In this document: piece by piece, positions 1,723 through 60,500 of the stretch
Layout of the letters: each line of letters starts with the position of its first letter
How positions within the stretch are numbered: position 1 is the stretch's first letter
Assembly: GCF_006345805.1 (NCBI RefSeq)
Contig: NC_043000.1
Location: 47,492,001 to 47,556,000 of the forward strand
Direction of reading: 5' to 3'
DNA from: Octopus sinensis
Lineage: Eukaryota
Length of the DNA stretch: 64,000 bases
The notes under the pieces: generated by a model
Database searches by the model: none
What the model was told of the DNA's origin: nothing
What the model saw: only the letters and a program-made list of their open reading frames with translations
Made by a program: the position numbers and the translations under genes

Positions 1723-1894
1723 AGGTGTAGGAGTGGCTGTGTGGTAAGTAGCTTGCTTACCAACCGCATGGTTCCGGGTTCAGTCCCACTGCGTAGCACC
1801 TTGGGCAGGTGTCTTCTACTATAGCCTCGGGTCGACCAAAGCCTTGTGAGTGGATTTGGTAGACGGAAACTGAAAGAAGACCGTCGTATATATG

Positions 1895-1948
<54 letters not shown>

Positions 1949-5347: not shown

Positions 5348-5808
5348 CAATTCCAATCATAGTCCTACATTATCCATAACTCATAAGTGCGTCCGCAATT
5401 AAATATTTTGTGCGACTGGCAGATTGGTAGACCACAATCCATATTATTATATAGCGACTAACTTCTTCTAATTGCTTGTGTCGTCTCAGCTTTTGAATTG
5501 TATGGGTCCGGGTTTTTTCTTTAATAAGTTTAGGTTTCTTGGCTTCCATCTGTTTATATTGGATAAGAAATTAATTTATCATCTCAAGGAAAATATGTGT
5601 TCAGCTTAATCTGTTCTACGCACAAAAAAAAAAGAATATAAAGTGAGCTGCGGAAATAAGGAGAAACAGATAGGAAAATACCCATTCAATTTAATCAAAC
5701 GTACTTTGAAGAAATATTAATATGAAGAAATACATGTATGCCTATAATATATTAGTGTGCGTGCACGTGTGTATGTATATATAGATATATATATATATAT
5801 ATATATAT

Positions 5809-6444
5809 AGCAATTAAGGACAACTACTTAAAAAGGAAAACTTAACAAGAAATTGTCAGGTAGATAGCGTGAAAACCTCATAAGAGAATAAATTTCGAAA
5901 ATAATTATTTCTTATTGAACATATTAATTTATATATAGAGGGCATTATACATACATGCCAGAGAGCATTATACATACATGCCACACGCTAAGAGGGACAA
6001 TTAGTCATTTCTACCAAAAAATATTACTAATTCCACCGAAACCTTATGAGGTTTTCACGCTATCTACCTGACAATTTCTTGTTAAGTTTTCCTTATTAAG
6101 TAGTTGTCCTTAATTGCTAAATTTTTATTCCGAAAAATCTTTTCCTCTCCCGAAATGCAATTCGTAAAAGTATGCCATTTACAGGATGTAATATATGTAA
6201 ACTCACCCATGTGCTTCGTTGATGTTGATCAGTTAGCTGATCGGCTTAAGCGGGACAGGGTCGTTTATTTATGATACATTCAGGCCTGCTGATGAATACG
6301 TAAGTATGAAATCACTGTGATACAGGTCTATATTTTTTAAATGTCTTATTTTGAAAAATTGCATTCGGTGGGATTAGTAATATTTTTTGGTAGAAATGAC
6401 TAATTGTCCCTCTTAGCGTGTGGCATGTATGTATAATGCTCTCT
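5809..6444. mobile_element. Retrozyme-like element B, left part
   Basis: Inverted piece 5809-6040 followed by a sense segment 6043-6444. Nearly identical to the 477-bp unit at 11361-12112; (TA)n on the left. Confidence 0.8.
6282..6329 (+). ncRNA. Minimal type I hammerhead ribozyme (element B, copy 1)
   Basis: AGGCCTG-CTGATGA-ATAC(GTAA)GTAT-GAAA-TCAC(T)GTGA-TA-CAGGTCT; predicted cleavage after 6322. Confidence 0.88.
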
Positions 6445-6700
6445 TACTTCTTTATTACGATTATACAATCGTTACATAGAAGGACAAATACAGGACATAC
6501 ATGCAAAAAACAGTTAAGAGGTTCGATTAAAAATTTTCCATAACATTTGGATTATTCATTATAAAAATTCGTCTATAAATTGTCCTTTACGTGACCAATA
6601 GAATATTATAACATTTCATAAACTTTCGATCTTACCGAAGTTTTAAACCCCGGCAATTTATAAGGCCCCGCAGCTTTTTTTTCCTCTCCTCCCTCCATAG

Positions 6701-9700
6701 TTAAGCTGGGTTTCTGACACCCACCTTTTTTTCCACTTCCTTCCATCTTTTCTCATACACACCCCGTGGTAAGATCCTCTTTTCCAGCCCCATTTTGCTC
6801 TTCAGATGATATCTGAAGTAAGTGAGCAAGCCGGGGCCCGAGACAAAGGATCCTATCGCGACTCCTTCCATTCTTGTTCGCCACATGCATTCTTTTACTA
6901 CTGCAACCGTGCAGTGAAAACATGCCTCACCTTCCTTCGAGAGTCCAGTTGGCGGTATCATCTTAATCATAGACTCAGCCGACAGCTGTACTCGTCCCAG
7001 ATGCGATAACACGTGTTCTGCGTAACTTATCAAGTCGGACAACTTCCGACAGTGTACAAAAGCGTGCTGGACGGTTTCATCGTCCAACTCGCACCTTGGA
7101 CACGTCGGTGGCACTGAAATTCCGTGCCGCGATAACTTCTCGCGAACAGGTAAAGCATTCCTATAGCACTGCCAGGCCAGGGATCTTTGGAAATTATCCA
7201 AGTACCCCGTCCTGAAAGTCTTTTTAAACAGGTTGGTAAGCTGGTCTTCGTCAACCCCAGAGCCCCTCCTAGGACGTCGTCGTTCTTTGCCTCTACCAGC
7301 CTTCTATAAAATACCGAGGTGGTATTTCCGCAGCCGGCCTTGCCCGCCTTGTGGATCAGCGTGAGTGCCTGTCGGCACTCCTTTTGCCATAAAGTCAGTT
7401 TCCATCTTTTGATGCGACCGGGTTTAAAATTCACTAAGGAGGCCGGTCTCGAGAAAAATTCCCCTGCCAGCGGACTCCACACCTTATCACCCTCCAGGTG
7501 GTGCCAGAGATGCTTCAGCCTCAACGCATGTCTGCGCATCATCAACCAAGGCATTCCTAACCCACCCTTTAACGGTTCCTGGCAGCAAACGGAGCGCCTC
7601 ACAAGTGGCTTTTCCTCCCTTCCACAAAAAGCGGAAAAGGATTCGCTCCAACTTGCTAAGCCATGAATCGGGGCAAGGGACAACGGTCAGGCGGTAAGTG
7701 ATTACAGATGCAATGAACATCTGTACCACCTCCACCCTTCCTTTCAAGGACAGAAACCTTCCGGACCAGGTCCGTACTATGGCCTCCACCTTGCTCGTCA
7801 CCTCACTCACTCCAGTTCCTCTCCGTTTGGGAGTCTGGCCCAAACCAACTCCTAGCAACTTAACAGGGCCATCCGTCCAGTGTCCCACGACACTGGACGA
7901 TATCGACTTGCTCCTCCAGGTGCCGAGGCGCAAGCCACCGACTTGTCCTTGTTAACCTTTGCTCCTGCCACCGCCTCGTATCCTCTGATAGCCTCTTCCA
8001 CACAAGGTAGCTGGGCCTCATTGGACACGATGAGGGTGACGTCATCCGCATAAGCAGTAACCGTCCTCCCACCTCCGATCTCATCCGAGTTACTTCCCAG
8101 CCTCTCCAACTTTCGCAGCAATGGCTCAAGAGCCAACACGTACAAAAGTGGTGACAAGGGGCACCCTTGACGAACTGAACATTCGATCGAAAACGGTTCC
8201 GTTAGGTAACCGTTTATCTGGACGGTGGACTTGATGCCGCTATACATAGCGGAGATCCACCCGCGAAATTCAGGGCCCAGTCCAGCCGCTTCGAGGACCG
8301 TCGCCAGGTACTCATGGTCTACCCTATCGAACGCTTTACTTTGGTCTAAATGGACCATTACCCCGCCCTTGCCGGTTAATTTACCCACCCTATCTAAGGT
8401 GTAGCGTATAAGGTGAAGATTGTCCTGGATCGACCTGCCTGGAATTGCACATGTCTGTGCTCTCCCTACAAGTTTCTCCACGACAACCGTCAACCTTTTT
8501 GCCAACACCTTGGCCAAAATCTTTAACTCTACATTAAGTAGAGTTATGGGCCTGTAGTTACTAATGTTATCCCCCTTGCTCGGGTCTTTCTGGATTAGCG
8601 TCACCACTCCCCGGCTTACAGAACTGGGAATTCTCCCATTCTGCTGCCAGTTCGTGTAGACGCCTGCCAATATTCCCCCGAACAAGTCCGGCATACTTTG
8701 GTAAAACTCGTAGGGCAGACCATCCAACCCCGGCGACTTCTCCCCGGCGCATCCGGCCAGCATCTCCTCTATCTCCGCGGGAGTGATCGCTTCTTCACAG
8801 CACTCCACCTCACGCCCCGAGAGCCGCGGTCCGCCGGCCAGGAAGTCCTTTAAGGTCCTCCCCCGCTCCGGCGCCACACCACCCCCGAACACGCGGGCGA
8901 AATGCTGGTGAAGAAACTTTTGCATCTCCTCCTGTCCATAGATCTTTTGTCCCTGTTCGTCAGTTAAAGACTTGATTGAGGCTTTGTTACCTCCTGACTC
9001 TCTCTCTCACTCGACGGGCCCATCCGGCAACGTTAATACCTTCTCGTTTCCCAGCGCGTAGCTTAGCTCTGACTCTGCAACCTTCGTGTTTGGAGTTAAG
9101 GTGACGGTACAATACCGTCCTTGCCGCCATCACTCCGGATGCAGAGCCAGCTTCCATTGCCTCGTTTAGATTCTTAACTAAATCGTCCTCTATCCTAGAC
9201 CTATCTAACCTTAGCTGATTGCTAAATCTAATGGACTCTGAACGAATGGCTCTTTTGAGGGAGTGCCACCATCTATTGTTAATGATGGTGCCACACAATG
9301 CCCTCTGTACTAACACCTTAATCCGGGTACGGAAGTCTTCACAATTCAAAATAGCCTTGTTCAGCTTCCAGTACCCGGGTCCCTGTCTATGACACTTGTC
9401 TAATTGCATCCTACACGTCACAAATTTGTGATCCGTGTAAGGCACAATGTGAAACTGTGGACAACTAAACGTATCCTTATCTCTTTTCTTAATAAATATC
9501 CTATCTAAATACGATCTGTGTGAGCCGTCGTTGTTACTCCACGTCCACTGTGGAACGCTCAGCTCATCCAGTCGGTAACGGTCCACTAGATCAAAGCTCT
9601 CTAGTAGACCCTTGAGGCTAGGGTTCCCCTTCCTATTGGTTGAGCCAACACTGTCGACCCGCGCTTCAAGGACAGTGTTAAAGTCCCCTACTAGGATTAC

Positions 9701-10095
9701 CGTTTTCGACGTCGCTAAAAAGGGCTCCAGGTTCCGAAAAAACCCGTCTGTCTACTCTCGTTCGGAGCGTAGACAGCTACCAACCTGAAGGACTGTTTAC
9801 TTACGTGGGTCACATCCAGAACAACCAGCCTGCCTTCTGGGTCCAGAAAGACAGTACTTACCTGCAAGTCCAAGCTCTTCCTGATAAGGACTGCCACGCC
9901 TCTGCCTCTTCCTCGGCTAGGAGAAATAAATTTCTCGAACCCATTTAGAAGAGGCGAGAACGCTTGGGCCTCGTTCATCTTGGACTCGGTTGCAATAGCT
10001 ATGTCTACTCCATGTGTCGTGAGGTCGTCCAGGAAGCAAATTTGTTTCCATTCCGACCCCATTCCACGTACATTCACACAACCCAGCTTAGCCAT
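6701..10095 (-). pseudogene. LINE ORF2 (APE endonuclease, reverse transcriptase, C-terminal zinc finger), split by several frameshifts
   Basis: Endonuclease motifs VNVRG, SYLDRIF, TDHK. RT motifs KSPGLDGLP, NYRPITLLN, LDQSKAFDRV, RQGCPLSP, YADD. C-terminal CPRC..H..HC. Spread over ORFs 9715..10095, 8987..9586, 7852..8925, 7487..7933, 7030..7683 and 6701..7201. Confidence 0.92.
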
Positions 10096-10122
10096 TGTCG
10101 GTGAGAGAAAAAATAAATGAAC

Positions 10123-11364
10123 TTACGGTTGAGAAAGGGAGCATGACAGTTTAAATCTGCCCGCCTCCCCTTCTTCCTCCCTTGTGGTCGTAGCTGCAGG
10201 GCTCTTAACCGGCGTTGCCACCGGGCTCTGGGTAGGTGTGGTTGCCGGGGTTATAACAAGTTTACCCTCCAGTACTTCTTTTGTTACATCTCTAATCAGT
10301 CTATTCTTTAGATGTTCCTGCAGTACTTCCTCCTTCCACCCGTCTTCCCCCACTTTTGCGAAGCGAGTGGTTGCTTTTATGTCTGTAGCCTTGCTAAATA
10401 GTTTAAATTTTGAAAATTTATAGTATTTATATACCCTTTCGTTTGTTTCATCAAAAGCAATGATCTTATCATTTTTTTTTAAAGACTTTTTCACATCTTG
10501 TTTTATGGGGAGGGGCTTGGCGAACTGTTTCCCAATGAATACAGTGCCATGGGGGTAGGGCTGGGGAATTTGCTTTGTGTGTATGTCTGCGGTGCTTGCT
10601 GATTTTTTCCTTGTTTGGGGAGGGGAGTCCAGGGTTTTGTCTTTTTTTCTTTTGTGTGTCACCTGTGTGTAATCCATTTGTTCGGTACAATCCGTTTCTG
10701 TTTCTTTGCTTGTCGTCGTCTTGTTTTCTTTTTCCGCCTTCTCCCCTTCAGTGTTAGAAGCACTTTGAGGAGGGGCTTCATTGGTTTTCTTTTTTTTTAA
10801 GCAGTTCGAGCGGACGTGACCCTTCTCGCCACATTTAAAACATCTAGGTCTGCGCCCCTCCACTGACACTCTCATGGACGTTCCATCTTCGTTAAATATC
10901 CTATCGGGCAGGTTCTCCAATATCTTGTTCTCTGCCTGAACGAGGAGTTCCAGCGTCTGTCCCTTCCAGCGTACCTCCTCTTTCCTTCTCATCTGCAGAA
11001 TCGAAATTTCCCGCTCTACATTGTGCAGGACCGCCGCTGCTACCCACATAATATCATACCCTCTCGGTATGTCCTCTACCAGCAGTTTAGCTGTTCTTTT
11101 TCCCATATACGAGGGTAGCAGCATGATATCATCATTTTTCAGGGTCAATGATGACACCTCTCTTGCTACCTCAGCCGAGTCAAAATGTGCTTCAACAGTA
11201 GCGCTGCGAGCACCTCGAACGACATGGCGAATTTTGTCCCACACCGCGGACAAGCACTTTTCGACAATTTCGTTTCTGACGTCCATAATTTTCTTTTCTT
11301 TGTAGCTATACACTTTGTATATAACTGTTTTTTCCTTTATTTCTTGTACCTTCGCTTGTACCAT
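10123..11364 (-). CDS. LINE ORF1, gag-like nucleic-acid-binding protein (413 aa)
   Basis: Uninterrupted ORF; CFKCGEKGHVRSNC zinc knuckle; basic low-complexity C-terminus; ends 28 bp before the ORF2 start. Confidence 0.88.
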   Translation of the reverse strand: MVQAKVQEIKEKTVIYKVYSYKEKKIMDVRNEIVEKCLSAVWDKIRHVVRGARSATVEAHFDSAEVAREVSSLTLKNDDIMLLPSYMGKRTAKLLVEDIPRGYDIMWVAAAVLHNVEREISILQMRRKEEVRWKGQTLELLVQAENKILENLPDRIFNEDGTSMRVSVEGRRPRCFKCGEKGHVRSNCLKKKKTNEAPPQSASNTEGEKAEKENKTTTSKETETDCTEQMDYTQVTHKRKKDKTLDSPPQTRKKSASTADIHTKQIPQPYPHGTVFIGKQFAKPLPIKQDVKKSLKKNDKIIAFDETNERVYKYYKFSKFKLFSKATDIKATTRFAKVGEDGWKEEVLQEHLKNRLIRDVTKEVLEGKLVITPATTPTQSPVATPVKSPAATTTREEEGEAGRFKLSCSLSQP

Positions 11365-11435
11365 GTGCTTCGTTGATGTTGATCAGTTAGCTGATCGGCT
11401 TAAGCGGGACAGGGTCGTTTATTTATGATACATTC

Positions 11436-11483
11436 AGGCCTGCTGATGAATACGTAAGTATGAAATCACTGTGATACAGGTCT
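11436..11483 (+). ncRNA. Minimal type I hammerhead ribozyme (element B, copy 2)
   Basis: Identical to 6282-6329. Confidence 0.88.
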
Positions 11484-11912
11484 ATATTTTTTAAATGTCT
11501 TATTTTGAAAAATTGCATTCGGTGGGATTAGTAATATTTTTTGGTAGAAATGACTAATTGTCCCTCTTAGCGTGTGGCATGTATGTATAATGCTCTCTGG
11601 CATGTATGTATAATGCCCTCTATATATAAATTAATATGTTCAATAAGAAATAATTATTTTCGAAATTTATTCTCTTATGAGGTTTTCACGCTATCTACCT
11701 GACAATTTCTTGTTAAGTTTTCCTTATTAAGTAGTTGTCCTTAATTGCTAAATTTTTATTCCGAAAAAACTTTTCCTCTCCCGAAATGCAATTCGTAAAA
11801 GTATGCCATTTACAGGATGTAATATATGTAAACTCACCCATGTGCTTCGTTGATGTTGATCAGTTAGCTGATCGGCTTAAGCGGGACAGGGTCGTTTATT
11901 TATGATACATTC

Positions 11913-11960
11913 AGGCCTGCTGATGAATACGTAAGTATGAAATCACTGTGATACAGGTCT
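11913..11960 (+). ncRNA. Minimal type I hammerhead ribozyme (element B, copy 3)
   Basis: Identical to 6282-6329. Confidence 0.88.
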
Positions 11961-12107
11961 ATATTTTTTAAATGTCTTATTTTGAAAAATTGCATTCGGT
12001 GGGATTAGTAATATTTTTTGGTAGAAATGACTAATTGTCCCTCTTAGCGTGTGGCATGTATGTATAATGCTCTCTGGCATGTATGTATAATGCCCTCTAT
12101 ATATAAA

Positions 12108-12180
<73 letters not shown>

Positions 12181-12182
<2 letters not shown>

Positions 12183-12716
12183 AGTTTAACATTAAGGATA
12201 ATCTCTTAATAAGGGATCTTAACAAGAAATTATCGGGTAGCTAGCGTGAAAACCTCATAAAAGAAAAGAATCCGAAAATAATTTTTTTCTTTTGAACAAA
12301 TTAATTATATCTATATTGTATAGAGGGCATTATTACACATAAATGCCTCACACTAGGAGGGACAAAGTCATTACTACCAAAAATTATACTAATCATACCC
12401 AATGCAGTTTTTCAAAGCAAGACTTTAAAAATGAATTATGTTCTGTATCACCGTGATTTCACATACAACTTGCGTCTAATGATCGTCAGCAGAACTGATT
12501 CTGAATACATCATAAATAAACTACCAACCTTACGTAGCGGAGACGAACAGACAACTGTTCACTCCGGCCAAGCACATGGAATGTTTATAAATCATATATC
12601 CGGTAAATGGCGGGCTTTTTACGAACTGCATGTCGGGTAATGAAAAGTATTTCGGAATAAGTTTAACAATTAAGGATAATCTCTTAATAAGGGATCTTAA
12701 CAAGAAATTATCGGGT
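12181..12716 (-). mobile_element. Retrozyme-like element C, a diverged relative of B (477-bp period, ~58-bp terminal redundancy)
   Basis: TAAGTTTAAC..TTATCGGGTA at 12181 and 12658; colinear similarity to element B; (TA)n on both sides. Confidence 0.8.
12440..12495 (-). ncRNA. Type I hammerhead ribozyme (element C)
   Basis: Minus strand: GTTCTG-CTGACGA-(imperfect stem II with GAC-GCAA-GTT)-GAAA-TCAC(G)GTGA-TA-CAGAAC. Confidence 0.75.
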
Positions 12717-13259
12717 ATATATATATATACACACACAGAAACATACATGCATATATATATTTATATATATTTATGTATATATATATATGTGTATATATAA
12801 TATATATATTTATGAATATATATACACACATATTCACATATATAATACAAATAATATATATATATAATATATATATATATACATATATAGATAATATATT
12901 TATGTATTTATATATATATATATATATAATATATATATATATATATACATATATAGATATATATATTTATGTATATATATATATATGTATATACATATGT
13001 ATATGTACATACATCTATACGTATATTATGCATATGTAGGCACAGGACGTCACGAAACGTGTACAACAAAAAATACGAAGCACGAGTTCATGGAATATGA
13101 ACTATTTATTCGAACAACGAAAGACACAAATGGAAAACAAGACAAACAACATAAAGAACGACCCTTCATCAGCTGTTGGCTGTTTTTCTACTCTCGTATT
13201 TCGAACATATATACACATATATATATATATTACACAAACACACACACATATATACATAT

Positions 13260-13815: not shown

Positions 13816-13977
13816 GGCGCAGGAGTGGCTGTGTGGTAAGTAGCTTGTTTACCAACCACATGGTTCCGGGTTCAGTCCCACTGCGTGGCACCTTGGGCAA
13901 GTGTCTTCTACTATAACCTCTGGCCGACCAAAGCCTTGTGAGTGGATTTGGTAAACGGAAACTGAAAGAAGCCCGTC

Positions 13978-14031
<54 letters not shown>

Positions 14032-14250
14032 GTGTGTGTATATGTTTGTGTGTCTGTGTTTGTCCCCCTAGCATTGCTTGACAACCGATGCTGGTGTGCC
14101 TATGTCCCCGTTACTTAGCGGTTCGGCAAAAGAGACCGATAGGATAAGTACTGGGCTTACAAAAAAATAAGTCCCGGGGTCGAGTTGCTCGATTAAAGGC
14201 GGTGCTCCAGCATGGCCGCAGTCAAATGACTGAAACAAATAAAAAGAGTA
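13816..14250 (+). mobile_element. Family A SINE, full length
   Basis: High similarity to 1723-2140. Confidence 0.85.
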
Positions 14251-32788: not shown

Positions 32789-33107
32789 ACTCCGCCGGTT
32801 ACGACGACGAGGGTCCCAGCTGATACGATCAACGGAACAGCTTGCTCGTGAAATTAACGTGCAAATGGCTGAGCATTCCACAGACACGTGTACCCTTAAC
32901 GTAGTTCTCGGGGATAATCAGCGTGACACAGAGAGTGACAAGGCTGACCCTTTGAAATACAAGTACAACTCATTTTTGCCAGCTGAGTGGACTGGAGCAA
33001 CGTGAAATAAAGTGTCTTGCTCAAGGACACAACGCGTCGCCGGGAATCGAACTCACAACCTTACGATCATGAGCCGAATGCCCTAACCACTAAGCCACGC
33101 GCCCTCA
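32789..33107 (-). mobile_element. SINE with family D head and CORE-like domain plus family C tail
   Basis: The head resembles the 14392 copy. The tail AAGGGTACACGTGTCTGTGG..CCCTCGTCGTCGTAACCG matches the 58053 copy. Confidence 0.8.
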
Positions 33108-35797: not shown

Positions 35798-36194
35798 CTC
35801 TTTTACTTGTTTCAGTCATTTAACTGTGGCCATGCTGGAGCACTGCCTTTAGTCAAAGAAATCGAGTCCAAGACTTATTCTTTATAAATCTAATACTTAT
35901 TCTATTGGACACTTTTGCCGAAAGGGTAAGTTACGGAGACGCAAACACACCAGCACCGGTTGTCAAGCGACGTTGCGGAGACAAACACAGACACAAAAAC
36001 ATATACACACACACACATATATATATATACATATATACGACGGGCTTCTTTCAGTTTCCGTCTACCAAATCTACTCACAAGGCTTTGGTCGGCCGAAGGC
36101 TATAGTAGAAGACACTTGCCCAAGGTGCCACGCAGTGGGACTGAACCTGGAACCATGTGGTTGGTAAGCAAGCTATTTACCACATAGCCACTCC

Positions 36195-36197
<3 letters not shown>
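35798..36197 (-). mobile_element. Family A SINE, full length
   Basis: Reverse complement of the 13816-14250 type. Confidence 0.85.
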
Positions 36198-36237
<40 letters not shown>

Positions 36238-45600: not shown

Positions 45601-46620
45601 TATATCTCTTACATTTCAGATTTCACACTAGATACGTTTCTTGATTATACTTCATCTGAGATGCGACACGCAGAAATATGTTTATGCAAATCATTTTTAA
45701 GATACAGACATCGATCTAGACATCATCGAACTCAACATCAACCACTTCAATCATGCTGCTCTAGGATAGCTTGCACATGTTACAATCATTGTCTTTTTTC
45801 CGTTGAATACCCTCTTTTTTTCTTTTCTTTAAATGGTCTAGACAGTGGCTTGTGGCCATGCTAATTTTTTAAATTTATTTATTCATTTATTTGTCGTTTT
45901 ACTGGTCAACTGTACTCAGATATTTTAGCATGCATCTACAGTGTCGCATTCTTGTATATGCTTATTTACCTAATATAGTCGTTTGAACTTGCGAGAAACA
46001 ACAGCTAAATTTTGCCTTAATTCACATTTGATTGAGATGATGATGTAGTCCAAGGAAAACAATTCCTAAAAATTCGATGGGAATGTCATGGTTTGAATGA
46101 CTGGGTTTTGCATTACTTACACCACTAACTTCTGTCAGCCAAGGCTGACCAGGTGCCTCTGCACACGAATCAACAGCATTGAACGGTGTCCTTTTGTAAA
46201 AAACTAGCTGTTGTTCATGTATGCAAGTCTCCTTTTATTACAATATCTATGTTTATCAAAGGGAAAAGCCGCTGCCTTGAGATGCAGATTAGCTCCAGTG
46301 TCGTCGCATTGAACCAGAGCAGATGCTGTAAGGTATCTCACCTTTGTTGTAATCGTTCCGCCAGCCCACTATCTTCGATTGGTATTTCTTTTATTAACCT
46401 GATAGGCAAATTTGAGCTCGACAGGAGCGCAGACTGTTAGAACAAACACTGCAAGGTATTCTAGCCATCGCTCTAACGAAAAAGCTATTTCATTACCTTA
46501 TCCTTGTGGGTGTTTTTCGCATTTTTTTCTTTTAATCAAGTGTACCTAGTTAAGTTCGATGAGAAAGTTTTATTTGAGGCAACCGATTTTTTATAGCTGG
46601 ATATGTCAATAAACAATCAA

Positions 46621-47012
46621 CGCAGGAGTGGCTGTGTGGTAAGTAGCTTGCTAACCAACCACATGGTTCTGGGTTCATTCCCACTGTGTGGCACCTTGGA
46701 CAAGTGTCTTCTACTATAGCCTCGCGCCGACCAACGCCTTGTGAGGGGATTTGGTAGATGGAAACTGAAAGAAACCCGTCGTATATATGTATATATGTAT
46801 GTGTGTGTATACGTTTGTGTGTCTGTGTTTGTCCCCTCAACACCGCTTGACAACCGATGCTGGTGTGTTTACGTCCCCGTAACTTGGCGGTTCGGCAAAA
46901 GAGACCGATAGAATAAGTACTAGGCTTACAAAGAATAAGTCCTGGGTTCGATTTGCTCGACTAAAGGCGGTGCTCCAGCATGGCCACAGTCAAATGAGTG
47001 AAACAAGTAAAA
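46621..47012 (+). mobile_element. Family A SINE, full length
   Basis: High similarity to 1723-2140. Confidence 0.85.
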
Positions 47013-51319: not shown

Positions 51320-51326
51320 CGTATAT

Positions 51327-51733
51327 GGAGTGGCTGTGTGGTAAGTAGCTTGCTTACCAACCATACGGTTCCGGGTACAGTCCCACTGCGGGGCAACTTC
51401 TGCAAGTGTTTTATGTTATAGCCTCGGGCCGACCAAAGCTTTGTGAGTGGATTTCGTAGACGGAACCTAAAAGAAGCTCGTCGTATGTGTGTGTGCGTGT
51501 GTGTTTGTGTGTGTGCATATGATTGTGTGCCTTTGTGTCGGTGTTTGCCCCACCACCACCATCGCTTGACAACCGGTGCTCGTGTGCTTACGTCCCCGTA
51601 ACTTAGCGGTTCGGCAACGAAACCGATAGATTAAGTACTAGGCTTACAAAGAATAAGACTTGGGTTTCGATTTGTCCGACTAAAAGCATTGCTCCAGCAT
51701 GGCCGCAGTCAAATGACTGAAACAAATAAAAGA
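51327..51733 (+). mobile_element. Family A SINE
   Basis: Similarity to 1723-2140. Confidence 0.8.
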
Positions 51734-57504: not shown

Positions 57505-57889
57505 TGGAAGCACTCCATCGGTTACGACGATGAGGGTTCCGGTTGATCCGAATCAACGGAACAGCCTGCTCGTGAAATTAACGTGTAAGTGGCTGAGCAC
57601 TCCACAGACACGCGTACCCTTAACGTAGTTCTCGGGGATATTCAGCGTGACACAGAGAGTGATAAGGCCGGCCCTTTGAAATACAGGTACAACAGAAACA
57701 GGAAGTAAGAGTGAGAGAAAGTTGTGGTGAAAGAGTACAGCAGGGATCACTACGATCCCCTGCCGGAGCCTCGTGGAGCTTTAGGTGTTTTCGCTCAATA
57801 AACACTCACAACGCCCGGTCTGAGAATCGAAACCGCGATCCTATGACCGCGAGTCCGCTGCCCTAACCACTGAGCCATTGCGCCTCCAC
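57505..57889 (-). mobile_element. Family C SINE, young full-length copy
   Basis: Near-identical reverse complement of 58053-58440. Confidence 0.88.
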
Positions 57890-58052
57890 GGAAGTAATAA
57901 TAGTAGTAATAACGTGAACAATTCCACCACCACTATCAACAGTGAGAGCGGAACAGGTACTTTTGAAGCAGCAACTGCGAAATGCCAACAAAGGTACTAT
58001 GAGATAGACATAGATGTCTATCTCATATGTTAGCCCCAGTCCACAATCTCAT

Positions 58053-58440
58053 GTGGAGGCGCAATGGCCCAGTGGTTAGGGCAGCGGACTCGCGGTCATA
58101 TGATCGCGGTTTCGATTCTCAGACCGGACGTTGTGAGTGTTTATTGAGCGGAAACACCTAAAGCTCCACGAGGCTCCGGCAGGGGATGGTGGTGATCCCT
58201 GCTGTACTCTTTCATCACAACTTTCTCTCACTCTTACTTCCTGTTTCTGTTGTACCTGTATTTCAAAGGGCCGGCCTTGTCACTCTCTGTGTCATGCTGA
58301 ATATCCCCGAGAACTGCGTTAAGGGTACACGTGTCTGTGGAGTGCTCAGCCACTTACACGTTAATTTCACGAGCAGGCTGTTCCGTTGATTCGGATCAAC
58401 CGGAACCCTCGTCGTCGTAACCGACGGAGTGCTTCCACCA
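58053..58440 (+). mobile_element. Family C SINE, young full-length copy
   Basis: tRNA-like head; 12-bp TSD CCACAATCTCAT at 58041-58052 and 58441-58452. Confidence 0.9.
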
Positions 58441-58549
58441 CCACAATCTCATAAAAAGAGAAAAAACCTGAGCAAACCTTGCAATCCCATCCGAAGTGGA
58501 GGTAGAAATTAAGAAAAGTTCAGTAAATTATAGGTGCGTCTCGGTGCCC

Positions 58550-59490
58550 TTAGAGCTTTATATTCCCATGAAAGACTTCCTTGGTGAACTTTTGCGAGGT
58601 GTCTACCGCAACTGGCAGCAGAACGGTAGAACACCCGAGTCTGTGAGCCGAGGTGTAGTGGAGCTTCTAAAAAGGAGGGATCAACTGGCTGGTCCCTTCC
58701 AGAGGACTTTCGGACCAGCCCAACATCACTTCTAGAAATCCTTGGCCTGGCAGGGCTACCGGGAGGCGGAGGTTCTGTCGGTTCGTAATAAGCTTTACAG
58801 GCACGGGTGTGCAGTCAGACAGGCTTGTCCGTGATGCACGCGGAGCGATGAAACCGTTCTGCATGCTTTCGTACAGTGTCCACACATTGCTGACTAGTGG
58901 AGCTTTGTCGAACAGTTATTGTCTCGTGTAGGACGGATCTGGTTATCATCCGAGTCCATCGTGAAGATCGCCCCTCCTCCTTCCTTTGGTCAGGAAGGAC
59001 AGGCAGTTTTTCTCTGTCTGGTGACTATAGCGACAGAGATTGTGTGGTGGATGCGATTGAAGGGTTGAAGGCAGGTACCTTCCTCTCCGGTCAAGATTTC
59101 ATTGACTTTTTCAGGTTCCACCTGAAAAGGAATGTGAGGTTGGAGAGGGAGGTGCTGTCACCCAGTAAGTTTGTTGAACGGTGGATGAATGTGAAAAAAA
59201 TGGCCCGTGTGAATAGGCCTACTCTAAGTGTGCACCTACAGGCCGGATGGAATGAGAAGAGAGTGCCTACCTGAGATGCCTTTGGTGTTAGGGTTCCAAA
59301 ATGTGTGAGGTTCCTTTAGGCACCTCTCGATGGAACTCCTCCCCCCTATTGCGGAAGTACACTGTTGGTTTAATCCCCTTGTTAATTGTGTTTTCTATTC
59401 TGTTTACACGTTTAACCCCACTGTTCCTCGTCTTTGTATCGTCCTTTATGATTTGTGTTCGGGCCTAGTAGCTAATAAAAAAAGTATCAT
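58550..59490 (+). pseudogene. Decayed, internally deleted Tx1-like LINE related to 6445-11364
   Basis: GVYRNWQQNGRTPESVSRGVV matches GVYTNWQQNGRIPSSVSRGVV; FFRFHLKRNVRLER matches YFRYHLKSKMGLEK; AATAAA followed by (TAC)n. Confidence 0.8.
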
Positions 59491-59502
59491 TACTACTACT
59501 AT

Positions 59503-59551
<49 letters not shown>

Positions 59552-59567
59552 TCTTCTTCTTCTTCTT

Positions 59568-59607
<40 letters not shown>

Positions 59608-59615
59608 TACTACTT

Positions 59616-59658
<43 letters not shown>

Positions 59659-59667
59659 CACTACTAC

Positions 59668-59709
<42 letters not shown>

Positions 59710-59718
59710 CATTATTAT
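59490..59718. repeat. Compound (TAC)n/(TTC)n/(TTA)n microsatellite
   Basis: Directly visible. Confidence 0.95.
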
Positions 59719-59719
59719 T

Positions 59720-59860
59720 AAGGCGGCGAGCTGGGAAAATCGTTAGCCCGTTGGGCGAAATGCTTAGCGACATTTCGTCCGTCATTACGTTCCGAGTTCA
59801 AATTCTACCGAGGTCGACCTTGCCTATCATCCTTTCGAGATCGATAAATTAAGTACCAGT
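59720..59860 (+). mobile_element. SINE family B, 3' truncated
   Basis: AAGGCGGCGAGCTGG head. Confidence 0.7.
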
Positions 59861-60117
59861 GAAAATAACATGATGTCAATGTCAGGCAAGTTGGAGTTAA
59901 CATAAATTTATCAACTCAAAGCAATGGAATTTCGTGTTGTTGCTATGATGACAACACCTGCAAAAATACAAACAGCAGCAACAACAGCAGTAGAAACAAC
60001 AATGACAGCAACAGTATCAGCAACACCACCCCCACCCCCACCACCACCAACAACAACAACCGCGTGAACTAGAATAACTGCAAAACGAAAACAGAAATGT
60101 TTTTAGGCAACAGTAGT

Positions 60118-60500
60118 GGATGGGAAGCACTCCGTCGGTTACGACGACGAGGGTTCCGGTTGATCCGAATCAACGGAACAGTCTGCTCGTGATATTAACG
60201 TATAAGTGGCCGAGCACTCCACAGACACGTGTACCCTTAACGTAGTTCTCGGGGATATTCAGCGTGACACAGAGAGTGACAAGGCCGGCCCTTTGAAATA
60301 CAGGTACAACAGAAACAGGAAGTAAGAGAAAGTTGTGGTGAAAGAGTACAGCAGGGATCACCACCATCCCCTGCGGAGCCGCGTGGAGCTTTAGGTGTTT
60401 TCGCTCAATAAACACTCACAACGCCCGGTCTGGGAATCGAAACCGCGATCCTATGACCGCGAGTCCGCTGCCCTAACCACTGGGCCATTGCGCCTCCACT
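60118..60500 (-). mobile_element. Family C SINE, full length
   Basis: 11-bp TSD GCAACAGTAGT at 60107-60117 and 60501-60511. Confidence 0.88.

What the first reader, a model, noticed from the sequence alone, without database searches (positions are those of the whole stretch)
6282..11960. Three identical 48-nt minimal hammerheads with a 1-nt stem III loop
Seen: a perfect core, a 4-bp stem II with a GTAA (GNRA) tetraloop, a 7-bp stem I, stem III TCAC-T-GTGA, and an AUA cleavage triplet. A 1-nt loop cannot close as a monomer without fraying. Established: such motifs cleave as double hammerheads. Inference: the copies at 11436 and 11913 would cut out a 477-nt monomer. Copy identity implies a recent insertion.
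Basis: partly seen in the sequence, partly recalled or inferred. Interest (0 to 1): 0.7.

Follow-up and report, generated by a model that had tools for sequence, protein, structure and literature searches.

The report
Ribozyme repeat invaded by TATA-seeking LINE
The three identical hammerhead motifs belong to one copy of a scattered 477-base repeat that is likely a self-cutting 'retrozyme', and the 4.9 kb between the first two is a LINE jumping gene that sits at the same base of this repeat at nine places in the genome, likely because it inserts about 30 bases behind TATA boxes.

Summary
The three 48-nt type I hammerheads are real and identical. They lie in a 477-nt non-coding unit of a genome-wide tandem family (3,169 related motifs). 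The family is inserted Penelope-style in (TA)n as two back-to-back arms: a non-LTR retrozyme, a known kind. Folding favours a double hammerhead; cleavage and expression are untested. Its 3' end joins unit base 237 at nine loci on eight contigs. Each locus has its own retrozyme variants, so the LINE landed there at least five times independently; only one locus shows the pair copied together. The site lies 30 bases behind a TATA box. Sister LINE lineages sit about 30 bases behind TATA-like boxes in front of zinc-finger genes, a Penelope end and other targets (5 of 8 target classes, tested after the fact). Two endonuclease residues track the retrozyme target (8 of 8 against 0 of 21). The scan reported LINEs targeting retrozyme starts before, in other genomes and in this one. 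The antisense site, TATA spacing and residue pair are new here.

The parts
5786..5809 (.). (TA)n microsatellite, left target of the retrozyme insertion
5799..6040 (-). Inverted, 5'-truncated retrozyme arm (unit bases 157-398); its fixed end at base ~398 merges with the (TA)n
6043..6444 (+). Start of the sense arm: unit bases 313-477 then 1-237, broken off at the LINE 3' junction
6282..6329 (+). Hammerhead copy 1; predicted cut after 6322
6445..11358 (-). L1/Tx1-type LINE, antisense to the hammerheads; lacks about 385 nt of its 5' end; ORF2 is in several frames in this copy
6701..10095 (-). LINE ORF2 span: AP endonuclease, reverse transcriptase, zf-RVT
   Evidence: intact sister copy L083 has 1,129 aa; best solved match human L1 ORF2p, E 1e-69
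10029..10053 (-). First codon positions of endonuclease residues D23 (10029) and E15 (10053), found only in retrozyme-embedded copies
10123..11358 (-). LINE ORF1 (zinc knuckle), 5'-truncated
11359..11361 (.). LINE 5' junction; the retrozyme resumes at unit base 477, so bases 238-476 of that unit are missing
11362..11838 (+). One full 477-nt retrozyme unit (U1-477), the reference for unit numbering
11436..11483 (+). Hammerhead copy 2; predicted cut after 11476 (U115)
11477..11953 (+). Predicted cut-to-cut monomer, 33% GC; folds as a circle at -124.7 kcal/mol, z -6.0 against 40 dinucleotide shuffles
11575..11621 (+). Two tandem 23-mers; the LINE always joins the end of the first (U237 = 11598), never the second
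11621..11628 (-). TATATATA box; on the minus strand it starts 30 bases ahead of the LINE insertion site
11839..12114 (+). Last partial unit (U1-276) ending at the second fixed end
11913..11960 (+). Hammerhead copy 3; predicted cut after 11953
12112..12182 (.). (TA)n microsatellite, right target
12178..12721 (-). Separate insertion of the sister retrozyme subfamily (about 78% identical); its hammerhead at 12440-12495 has two compensatory stem I changes and a GCAA loop

Best explanation
The three hammerheads are part of one insertion of a 477-base, protein-less tandem repeat that is likely a self-cutting retrozyme copied by a Penelope-type enzyme, and a LINE sits in it at a fixed base, likely because this LINE cuts DNA about 30 bases behind TATA boxes. 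Step 1 (inferred): the repeat is transcribed, and neighbouring hammerheads pair through their palindromic stem III and cut out 477-nt monomers that may circularise. Step 2 (architecture shown, enzyme inferred): a Penelope-type RT/endonuclease inserts it in (TA)n as two back-to-back arms, one ending at U276 and one at U398. Step 3 (shown): a LINE sub-lineage entered such arrays repeatedly at U237, antisense to the ribozyme. Step 4 (inferred): the site is chosen by spacing from a TATA box, probably a start site or TBP-bound DNA. Which promoter family a lineage keeps using is likely inherited through target-derived RNA ends, possibly helped by two endonuclease residues (E15, D23). Step 5 (shown for one locus, L085): the LINE-plus-retrozyme unit can itself be copied by the two-arm route.
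For: Family. 185 matches to the unit, 39 of 1,082 candidates scored, with tandem arrays; 3,169 motif matches, control 0. In all 15 of 32 plain arrays and 7 of 9 LINE-bearing arrays where both ends were seen, one arm ends near U276 and the other near U398; this matches the published Penelope geometry (PMC8557442). Stem I shows two compensatory changes between subfamilies. Fixed site. 9 loci on 8 contigs span the same junction (8 by exact pattern, control 0). All 9 use the first of two near-identical 23-mers. Independent landings. Each array has private variants shared by all its units, including the LINE's left flank (L081, L083, L084, L086). Three retrozyme subtypes host the LINE. L084 pairs a LINE and 5' junction of the L082/L083 clade with another subtype. 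The window and L081 differ by 0.6% in the LINE but 2.4% in the retrozyme. TATA spacing. 5 of 8 target classes have TATWWAW starting at -33 to -28; background 4.8%, P 1e-5. A related ORF1-only element with the same 3' tail sits at U14 in 4 loci, 29 bases behind TATATGTAAA on the sense strand. Inherited ends. The 5'-side 'duplication' often differs from the 3' flank but recurs within a lineage. Residues. E15/D23 occur in 8 of 8 embedded copies with an endonuclease and 0 of 21 free copies. Genome-wide, all 8 E/D matches among 14 pattern matches are the embedded loci. The window and L081 copies match the zinc-finger lineage across most of ORF2 yet carry E15/D23, while L095/L096 share the embedded lineage's ORF1 but have K15/N23 and another target.
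Against: No cleavage, expression or start site was measured. The TATA motif and window were chosen after looking at the flanks. Of the 3 misses, one has TATAAAG at -32, one TATATAT at -35 and one (L259) nothing. One hit (L271) is a (TA)n run. The two zinc-finger classes are paralogous. Copies without a resolvable 5' flank (e.g. L088, L090, L102, L111, L272) were left out. Some zinc-finger-lineage copies join about 25 bases further downstream (L106, L107, L269). The LINE is always at the U237 site nearest the arm junction (P 0.005 for 9 loci; 0.015-0.044 with one related group collapsed), which simple targeting does not predict. Only 2 of 8 scorable loci have a 13-14-bp duplication; 6 have lost 39-239 bp of target. 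The residues co-segregate with the RNA ends, so their effects cannot be separated, and the copies are related. No autonomous Penelope element with a clearly homologous end was found. Placement in the Tx1 clade was not tested by a tree.
Confidence: 0.68

Rival explanations
1. Cargo: the LINE landed once in a retrozyme, and the 5-6 kb composite was then spread as one unit by the Penelope route.
For: The 9 embedded LINEs fall in one clade of 11 rows (100/100). Three loci on three contigs share one 5' junction at U301. In L085 both arms contain the same LINE 5' end, identical over about 150 nt, and end at U276 and U398. The LINE always lies within 402 nt of the start of the sense arm.
Against: The retrozyme flanks belong to three subtypes and carry locus-private variants up to 10 nt from the junction. 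The window, L081, L082 and L083 retrozymes are closer to plain arrays than to any other composite. No further copies truncated inside the LINE were found with either known 5' junction. Two free copies nest in the clade. The reading holds for L085 and possibly its three closest relatives only.
Confidence: 0.12
2. Co-integration: the LINE captures the retrozyme while it is being inserted. The growing strand switches to LINE RNA at the first U237 it reaches and rejoins the other arm further on.
For: It explains the innermost position, the large variable target losses in 6 of 8 loci and the locus-private flanks.
Against: It does not predict the -30 TATA spacing shared with ordinary targets, the canonical duplications in L085/L086 or the use of only the first 23-mer by spacing. 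No precedent was seen in the papers read.
Confidence: 0.13
3. The LINE recognises a short DNA sequence (…CTC) or is steered only by read-through RNA homology, and the TATA spacing is a by-product of AT-rich DNA.
For: Many 3' junctions share CTC. Endonuclease specificity is the textbook determinant for Tx1 (PMC4494074). The TATA test was post hoc.
Against: The second, near-identical 23-mer is never used (0 of 9). Targets L095/L255/L256 (…AAGG) and L091 (…CTGTA) lack CTC yet keep the -29/-30 spacing. The background rate is 4.8%.
Confidence: 0.12
4. The hammerheads are inactive or irrelevant relics, and the arrays are satellites grown by unequal crossover from Penelope ends.
For: 8 of 9 Xenopus dimers did not cleave, and that paper discusses satellite growth. 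Neighbouring units in L081 share variants, as local duplication would give. Many arms run uncut through hammerhead sites.
Against: Dispersed two-armed insertions with two fixed ends, a strongly folded monomer (z -6.0), and a conserved core with compensatory stem I changes across subfamilies about 25% apart.
Confidence: 0.08

Closest known systems
Metazoan non-LTR retrozymes (Cervera and de la Pena 2020, PMC7229834, part 2 of 6 and passages read; Li et al. 2026, bioRxiv 10.64898/2026.07.22.740005, parts 1 and 3 of 5 read)
   Same: Tandem, non-coding, low-GC units, each with a type I hammerhead; dimer cleavage in amphibians; proposed Penelope partners.
   Different: The unit is 477 nt (published 150-450). 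Helix III is an 11-nt palindrome rather than 1-2 bp. Two fixed arm ends and an inserted LINE are not described in the parts read.
Penelope-like elements (PMC4209133, part 1 of 4 read; PMC8557442, passages read)
   Same: Tandem plus inverted 5'-truncated copy, a tail at one end only, (TA)n targets, a hammerhead in the repeats.
   Different: No RT/GIY-YIG ORF; the tail is 122 nt rather than 30-40; the hammerhead is not the min-HHR type. The ORF between the repeats here is an unrelated antisense LINE.
Target-specific Tx1-clade LINEs: Tx1L in Tx1D, Tx1-Mar in Mariner-N4, Keno in U2 genes (PMC4494074, passages read)
   Same: AP-endonuclease LINE inserting at a fixed place inside another mobile element, also in opposite orientation; that paper proposes transcription from the flank.
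   Different: The target is a retrozyme. Near-identical lineages (about 1-3% apart) use different targets whose common feature is a TATA-like box at about -30.
Ty3 and Dictyostelium TRE5-A (PMC5911963, passages read)
   Same: Insertion at a fixed distance from a promoter. Ty3 inserts at the Pol III start site and needs TBP and Brf1; TRE5-A ORF1 binds TBP, Brf1 and Bdp1.
   Different: Those target Pol III genes in fungi and amoebae. Here the targets look like TATA-type promoters in front of zinc-finger genes and mobile elements in an animal, and no protein contact was tested.

Membership tests
Non-LTR retrozyme | Type I hammerhead in each tandem unit | tested here: met
Non-LTR retrozyme | Short tandem, dispersed, low-GC units of about 150-450 bp | tested here: met
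   477 nt (slightly above the range), 33% GC, arrays on many contigs
Non-LTR retrozyme | No protein-coding ORF | tested here: met
   no stop-free frame of 80 aa or more lies inside 11362-12114
Non-LTR retrozyme | Highly self-paired monomer | tested here: met
   circular fold z -6.0 against 40 shuffles
Non-LTR retrozyme | Self-cleavage | not testable with these tools
   folding only
Non-LTR retrozyme | Accumulates as linear and circular RNA | not testable with these tools
   only contigs of runs not on record as RNA were available
Minimal hammerhead (min-HHR) of Penelope elements | Helix II 7-8 bp, helix I 4-5 bp, no helix III | tested here: not met
   helix I 7, helix II 4, helix III 4-5 bp against PMC4209133
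Autonomous Penelope-like element | RT plus GIY-YIG ORF between the repeats | tested here: not met
   the enclosed ORFs are zf-CCHC and APE-RT-zfRVT on the opposite strand
Non-autonomous Penelope derivative | Penelope-type insertion structure (inverted arm, one-sided tail, microsatellite target) | tested here: met
Non-autonomous Penelope derivative | Homology to the end of an autonomous element | tested here: inconclusive
   68 loci (65 places) of 147 GIY-YIG matches checked; best hit 71% over 73 AT-rich nt, E 0.008, out of register with the ends
Target-specific Tx1-clade LINE | ORF1 zinc knuckle; ORF2 APE-RT-zinc finger | tested here: met
Target-specific Tx1-clade LINE | Repeated insertion at one site of a multicopy target | tested here: met
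   9 loci at U237; other lineages at fixed sites
Target-specific Tx1-clade LINE | RT tree placement with Tx1L, Keno and Kibi | not tested
   no named Tx1 reference came back; the label Tx1 is recalled from architecture, and only L1-group likeness is shown
Target-specific Tx1-clade LINE | Target-site duplication | tested here: inconclusive
   13-14 bp in 2 of 8 scorable embedded loci, target loss in 6; 14-21 bp duplications in most full-length free copies

The most novel reading that the evidence does not exclude
An animal LINE that homes to TATA-box start sites, with heritable 'target memory'. Lineages only 1-3% apart each keep to one promoter family (zinc-finger gene cluster, another multicopy gene, a Penelope end, the antisense TATA of a retrozyme). 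They switch family by capturing new RNA ends and swapping two residues next to the endonuclease active site. In the retrozyme it may enter during the retrozyme's own insertion and ride along afterwards.
Probability: 0.35. Interest if true: 0.78.

Novelty: new variant of a known kind. Interest (0 to 1): 0.52.

Why it matters
The hammerheads themselves are a further member of a known class. The LINE is the useful part. How site-specific LINEs change targets is an open question, and here near-identical natural lineages use different targets, with recombinants that narrow the candidates to the RNA ends and two endonuclease residues. That is directly testable. If the TATA rule holds, the element inserts at the start of zinc-finger cluster genes and could be changing their expression. 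It would also be an animal, TATA-promoter counterpart of Ty3 and TRE5-A targeting. The arrays record how Penelope enzymes build two-armed insertions.

Tried and rejected
Rfam: no hammerhead match; its models miss this variant. Expression: no RNA holder listed. Contigs of runs guessed to be RNA cover parts of the unit, the LINE and a zinc-finger target flank, but cannot show strand, starts, cuts or levels; no splice joint from the target site to the zinc-finger exon was listed. Penelope partner: an intact 781-aa RT/GIY-YIG family in (TA)n exists, with its own U3-A8-type hammerhead, but its end is only weakly similar to the unit; only 150 of 5,029 candidates were scored. My first reading, a single insertion spread as cargo, was dropped. 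Shared ORF2-disabling lesions among embedded copies: none common to all, and L083 is intact. Arm starts clustering at the cut site: starts near U90-113 also occur in plain arrays, so this says nothing. Naming the LINE clade by homolog names failed. Two papers were not held, so stem III thresholds for monomer cleavage are not cited. A search on R2 5'-junction homology did not run; that point rests on one passage of PMC4494074. Supplements of the bioRxiv paper were not seen and might list this family. Searches for prior descriptions: Tx1 + retrozyme 0 papers; Tx1 start-site terms 1 paper, PMC4494074; LINE/TATA/start-site terms 1 unrelated paper; Penelope cargo terms 3 papers; two searches showed nothing on point. 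These last were seen as listings only.
Full report
Observation. The three 48-mers are identical and have the described anatomy, with predicted cuts after 6322, 11476 and 11953. A generic descriptor finds only these three in the window. A fourth hammerhead, of a sister subfamily, lies on the minus strand at 12440-12495. Rfam gives nothing. I number the unit U1-477 = window 11362-11838; the cut is after U115.

The repeat. The window lies in G000, a 2.72-Gb animal genome; earlier scan notes call it an octopus, which I did not determine myself. The unit gave 185 matches from 39 of 1,082 candidates scored, in tandem arrays at 92-100% identity. A core-plus-stem-III pattern gave 3,169 matches, control 0, in two subfamilies among the 100 listed. 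Insertions are two back-to-back arms in (TA)n. Counting ends between U250 and U470, all 15 of 32 plain arrays and 7 of 9 LINE-bearing arrays with both ends visible have one end near U276 and one near U398. Inverted 5'-truncated copies, a one-sided tail and microsatellite targets are described for Penelope-like elements (PMC8557442, passages). Tandem type I hammerhead units are the non-LTR retrozymes (PMC7229834), proposed to be Penelope derivatives (bioRxiv 10.64898/2026.07.22.740005). An intact 781-aa RT/GIY-YIG family sits in (TA)n in this genome, but no checked element has an end clearly homologous to the unit. The partner therefore stays inferred.

The ribozyme. Alone, the 48-mer forms the hammerhead with 0.9% probability; the core mispairs in the best fold (-12.1 against -9.7 kcal/mol). 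Two copies fold best as the double hammerhead (-31.1). The cut-to-cut monomer folds at z -6.0 as a circle. Between subfamilies stem I has two compensatory changes, the GNRA loop is kept, and the palindrome keeps its arms while the middle base differs. The stem sizes fit canonical type I motifs, not the min-HHR. A 4-bp stem with a 3-nt loop is possible, so the 1-nt loop does not force a dimer. Activity is unmeasured, and only 1 of 9 Xenopus dimers cleaved.

The LINE. Window 6445-11358 is a minus-strand LINE with a zinc-knuckle ORF1 and an APE-RT-zfRVT ORF2, closest to human L1 ORF2p among solved structures. 'Tx1' is my recalled label and was not tested by a tree. This copy lacks about 385 nt at its 5' end. 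Nine of 46 matches (40 of 1,211 candidates scored) span the same 3' junction at U237, on eight contigs; an exact pattern finds 8, control 0. The 5' junctions vary: a 13-14-bp duplication (L085, L086), resumption at U301 (L082-L084), U407 (L081), U477 (window) or U277 (L097), and no retrozyme on that side in L087.

Cargo or repeated targeting. In a tree of 30 copies the 9 embedded ones lie in one 100/100 clade with two free copies, which first suggested cargo. The flanks contradict this. Three retrozyme subtypes are involved, and the window, L081, L082 and L083 retrozymes are closer to plain arrays than to other composites. Private variants are shared by all units of a locus, including the LINE's left flank, and not between loci. 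L084 combines the LINE and U301 junction of L082/L083 with another subtype. I count at least five independent landings. The exception is L085, where both arms hold the same LINE 5' end and finish at U276 and U398: a composite RNA was copied there, or a double insertion collapsed. Searches on both known 5' junctions found no further copies.

Why U237. Free copies also have fixed targets. Most sit in a cluster on contig C28, with zinc-finger ORFs downstream in 3 of 10 flanks read. Five sit at another multicopy site, one at the 3' end of a Penelope element (flank matches L206), and several are one-offs. Read in LINE orientation, 5 of 8 resolvable target classes have TATWWAW starting at -33 to -28, including the retrozyme at -30; background is 4.8%, P 1e-5. 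I chose the motif and window after seeing the flanks. One hit is a (TA)n run, two misses are near-misses (-32 TATAAAG, -35), one has none, and unresolved copies were left out. An internal control agrees: the 23-mer at the site is duplicated, and only the copy 30 bases from the box is used, 9 of 9. An ORF1-only relative with the same 3' tail sits at U14 in sense orientation at 4 loci, 29 bases behind TATATGTAAA. That these are real start sites is inferred. I tested this idea after reading earlier scan notes on start-site targeting.

What keeps a lineage on its target. The 5'-side copy of the 'duplication' often differs from the 3' flank but recurs within a lineage, as expected if the RNA starts in the donor's target and carries it along. 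PMC4494074 cites such co-transcription as strengthening specific integration. Two endonuclease residues, E15 and D23 (aligned to L1 A21 and S29), occur in 8 of 8 embedded copies that retain the domain and 0 of 21 free ones. Genome-wide, 8 of 14 pattern matches carry them and are exactly the embedded loci; the other 6 show no retrozyme within the 10 kb fetched. The pattern misses the zinc-finger lineage, which was read from alignments. Recombinants cut across ancestry: the window and L081 copies match the zinc-finger lineage over most of ORF2, and L095/L096 share the embedded lineage's ORF1 but have neither residue nor the target. RNA ends and residues co-segregate, so neither is proven.

Unexplained. 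The LINE is always at the U237 site nearest the arm junction (P 0.005; 0.015-0.044 with related loci collapsed), and 6 of 8 loci lost 39-239 bp of target. Capture during the retrozyme's own insertion would explain both and is the main rival.

Comparison and verdict. The retrozyme is a new member of a known kind. Tx1 LINEs that target other transposons, and promoter-anchored Ty3 and TRE5-A, are known. My searches found no paper joining Tx1 and retrozymes or TATA-anchored LINE insertion, within the library's limits. The scan's own notes report LINEs at retrozyme start sites in other genomes and in this one. New here are the antisense site, the -30 TATA spacing across unrelated targets, the residue pair and one re-copied composite. 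New variant of a known kind; interest 0.52.

Noticed in passing
window 12178-12721 (-): A second retrozyme subfamily insertion in the same (TA)n, with a long bulged stem II; it forms arrays of up to 14 units elsewhere (L167).
   Followed up: partly
L151:3072-4772; L275-L278: A 1.7-kb ORF1-only element (473-aa frame, 38% identical to the LINE's ORF1 over 177 aa) with the LINE's 3' tail, inserted at U14 in sense orientation at 4 loci; 23-bp duplication at L151.
   Followed up: partly
G000 C28 about 4.3-5.5 Mb (L098-L109, L264-L274): The main LINE lineage sits at one site in front of C2H2 zinc-finger cluster genes, about 32 bases behind TATAAAG, sometimes in tandem or with an ORF1-only element; an effect on these genes is untested.
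   Followed up: partly
L095, L096, L255, L256, L258: A LINE lineage with K15/R16 inserts at one site of an unidentified multicopy sequence, 30 bases behind TATAAAA, on several contigs.
   Followed up: no
L199-L213: A young Penelope family (781-aa RT/GIY-YIG, upstream 479-aa frame overlapping it) in (TA)n, with a U3-A8 core hammerhead near its 3' end and a short tail at one end.
   Followed up: partly
L091 flank; L206 3' UTR: One free LINE copy sits in the 3' end of a second Penelope family, 29 bases behind TATTTAAA and upstream of that element's hammerhead-like motif.
   Followed up: partly
L081:6512-9820: Neighbouring units share variants in a sliding pattern, which suggests local duplication or conversion after insertion rather than pure single-circle copying.
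   Followed up: no
window 57505-58437 and 58231-60328: Young inverted repeats (385 nt, 97%; 206 nt, 97%), with a further related arm at 32828-32969; possibly another two-armed element.
   Followed up: no
window 1724-1945, 13816-14037, 35981-36205, 46619-46840, 51321-51542: A dispersed repeat of about 220 nt next to (TG)n/(TA)n runs, 80-91% identical, on both strands.
   Followed up: no
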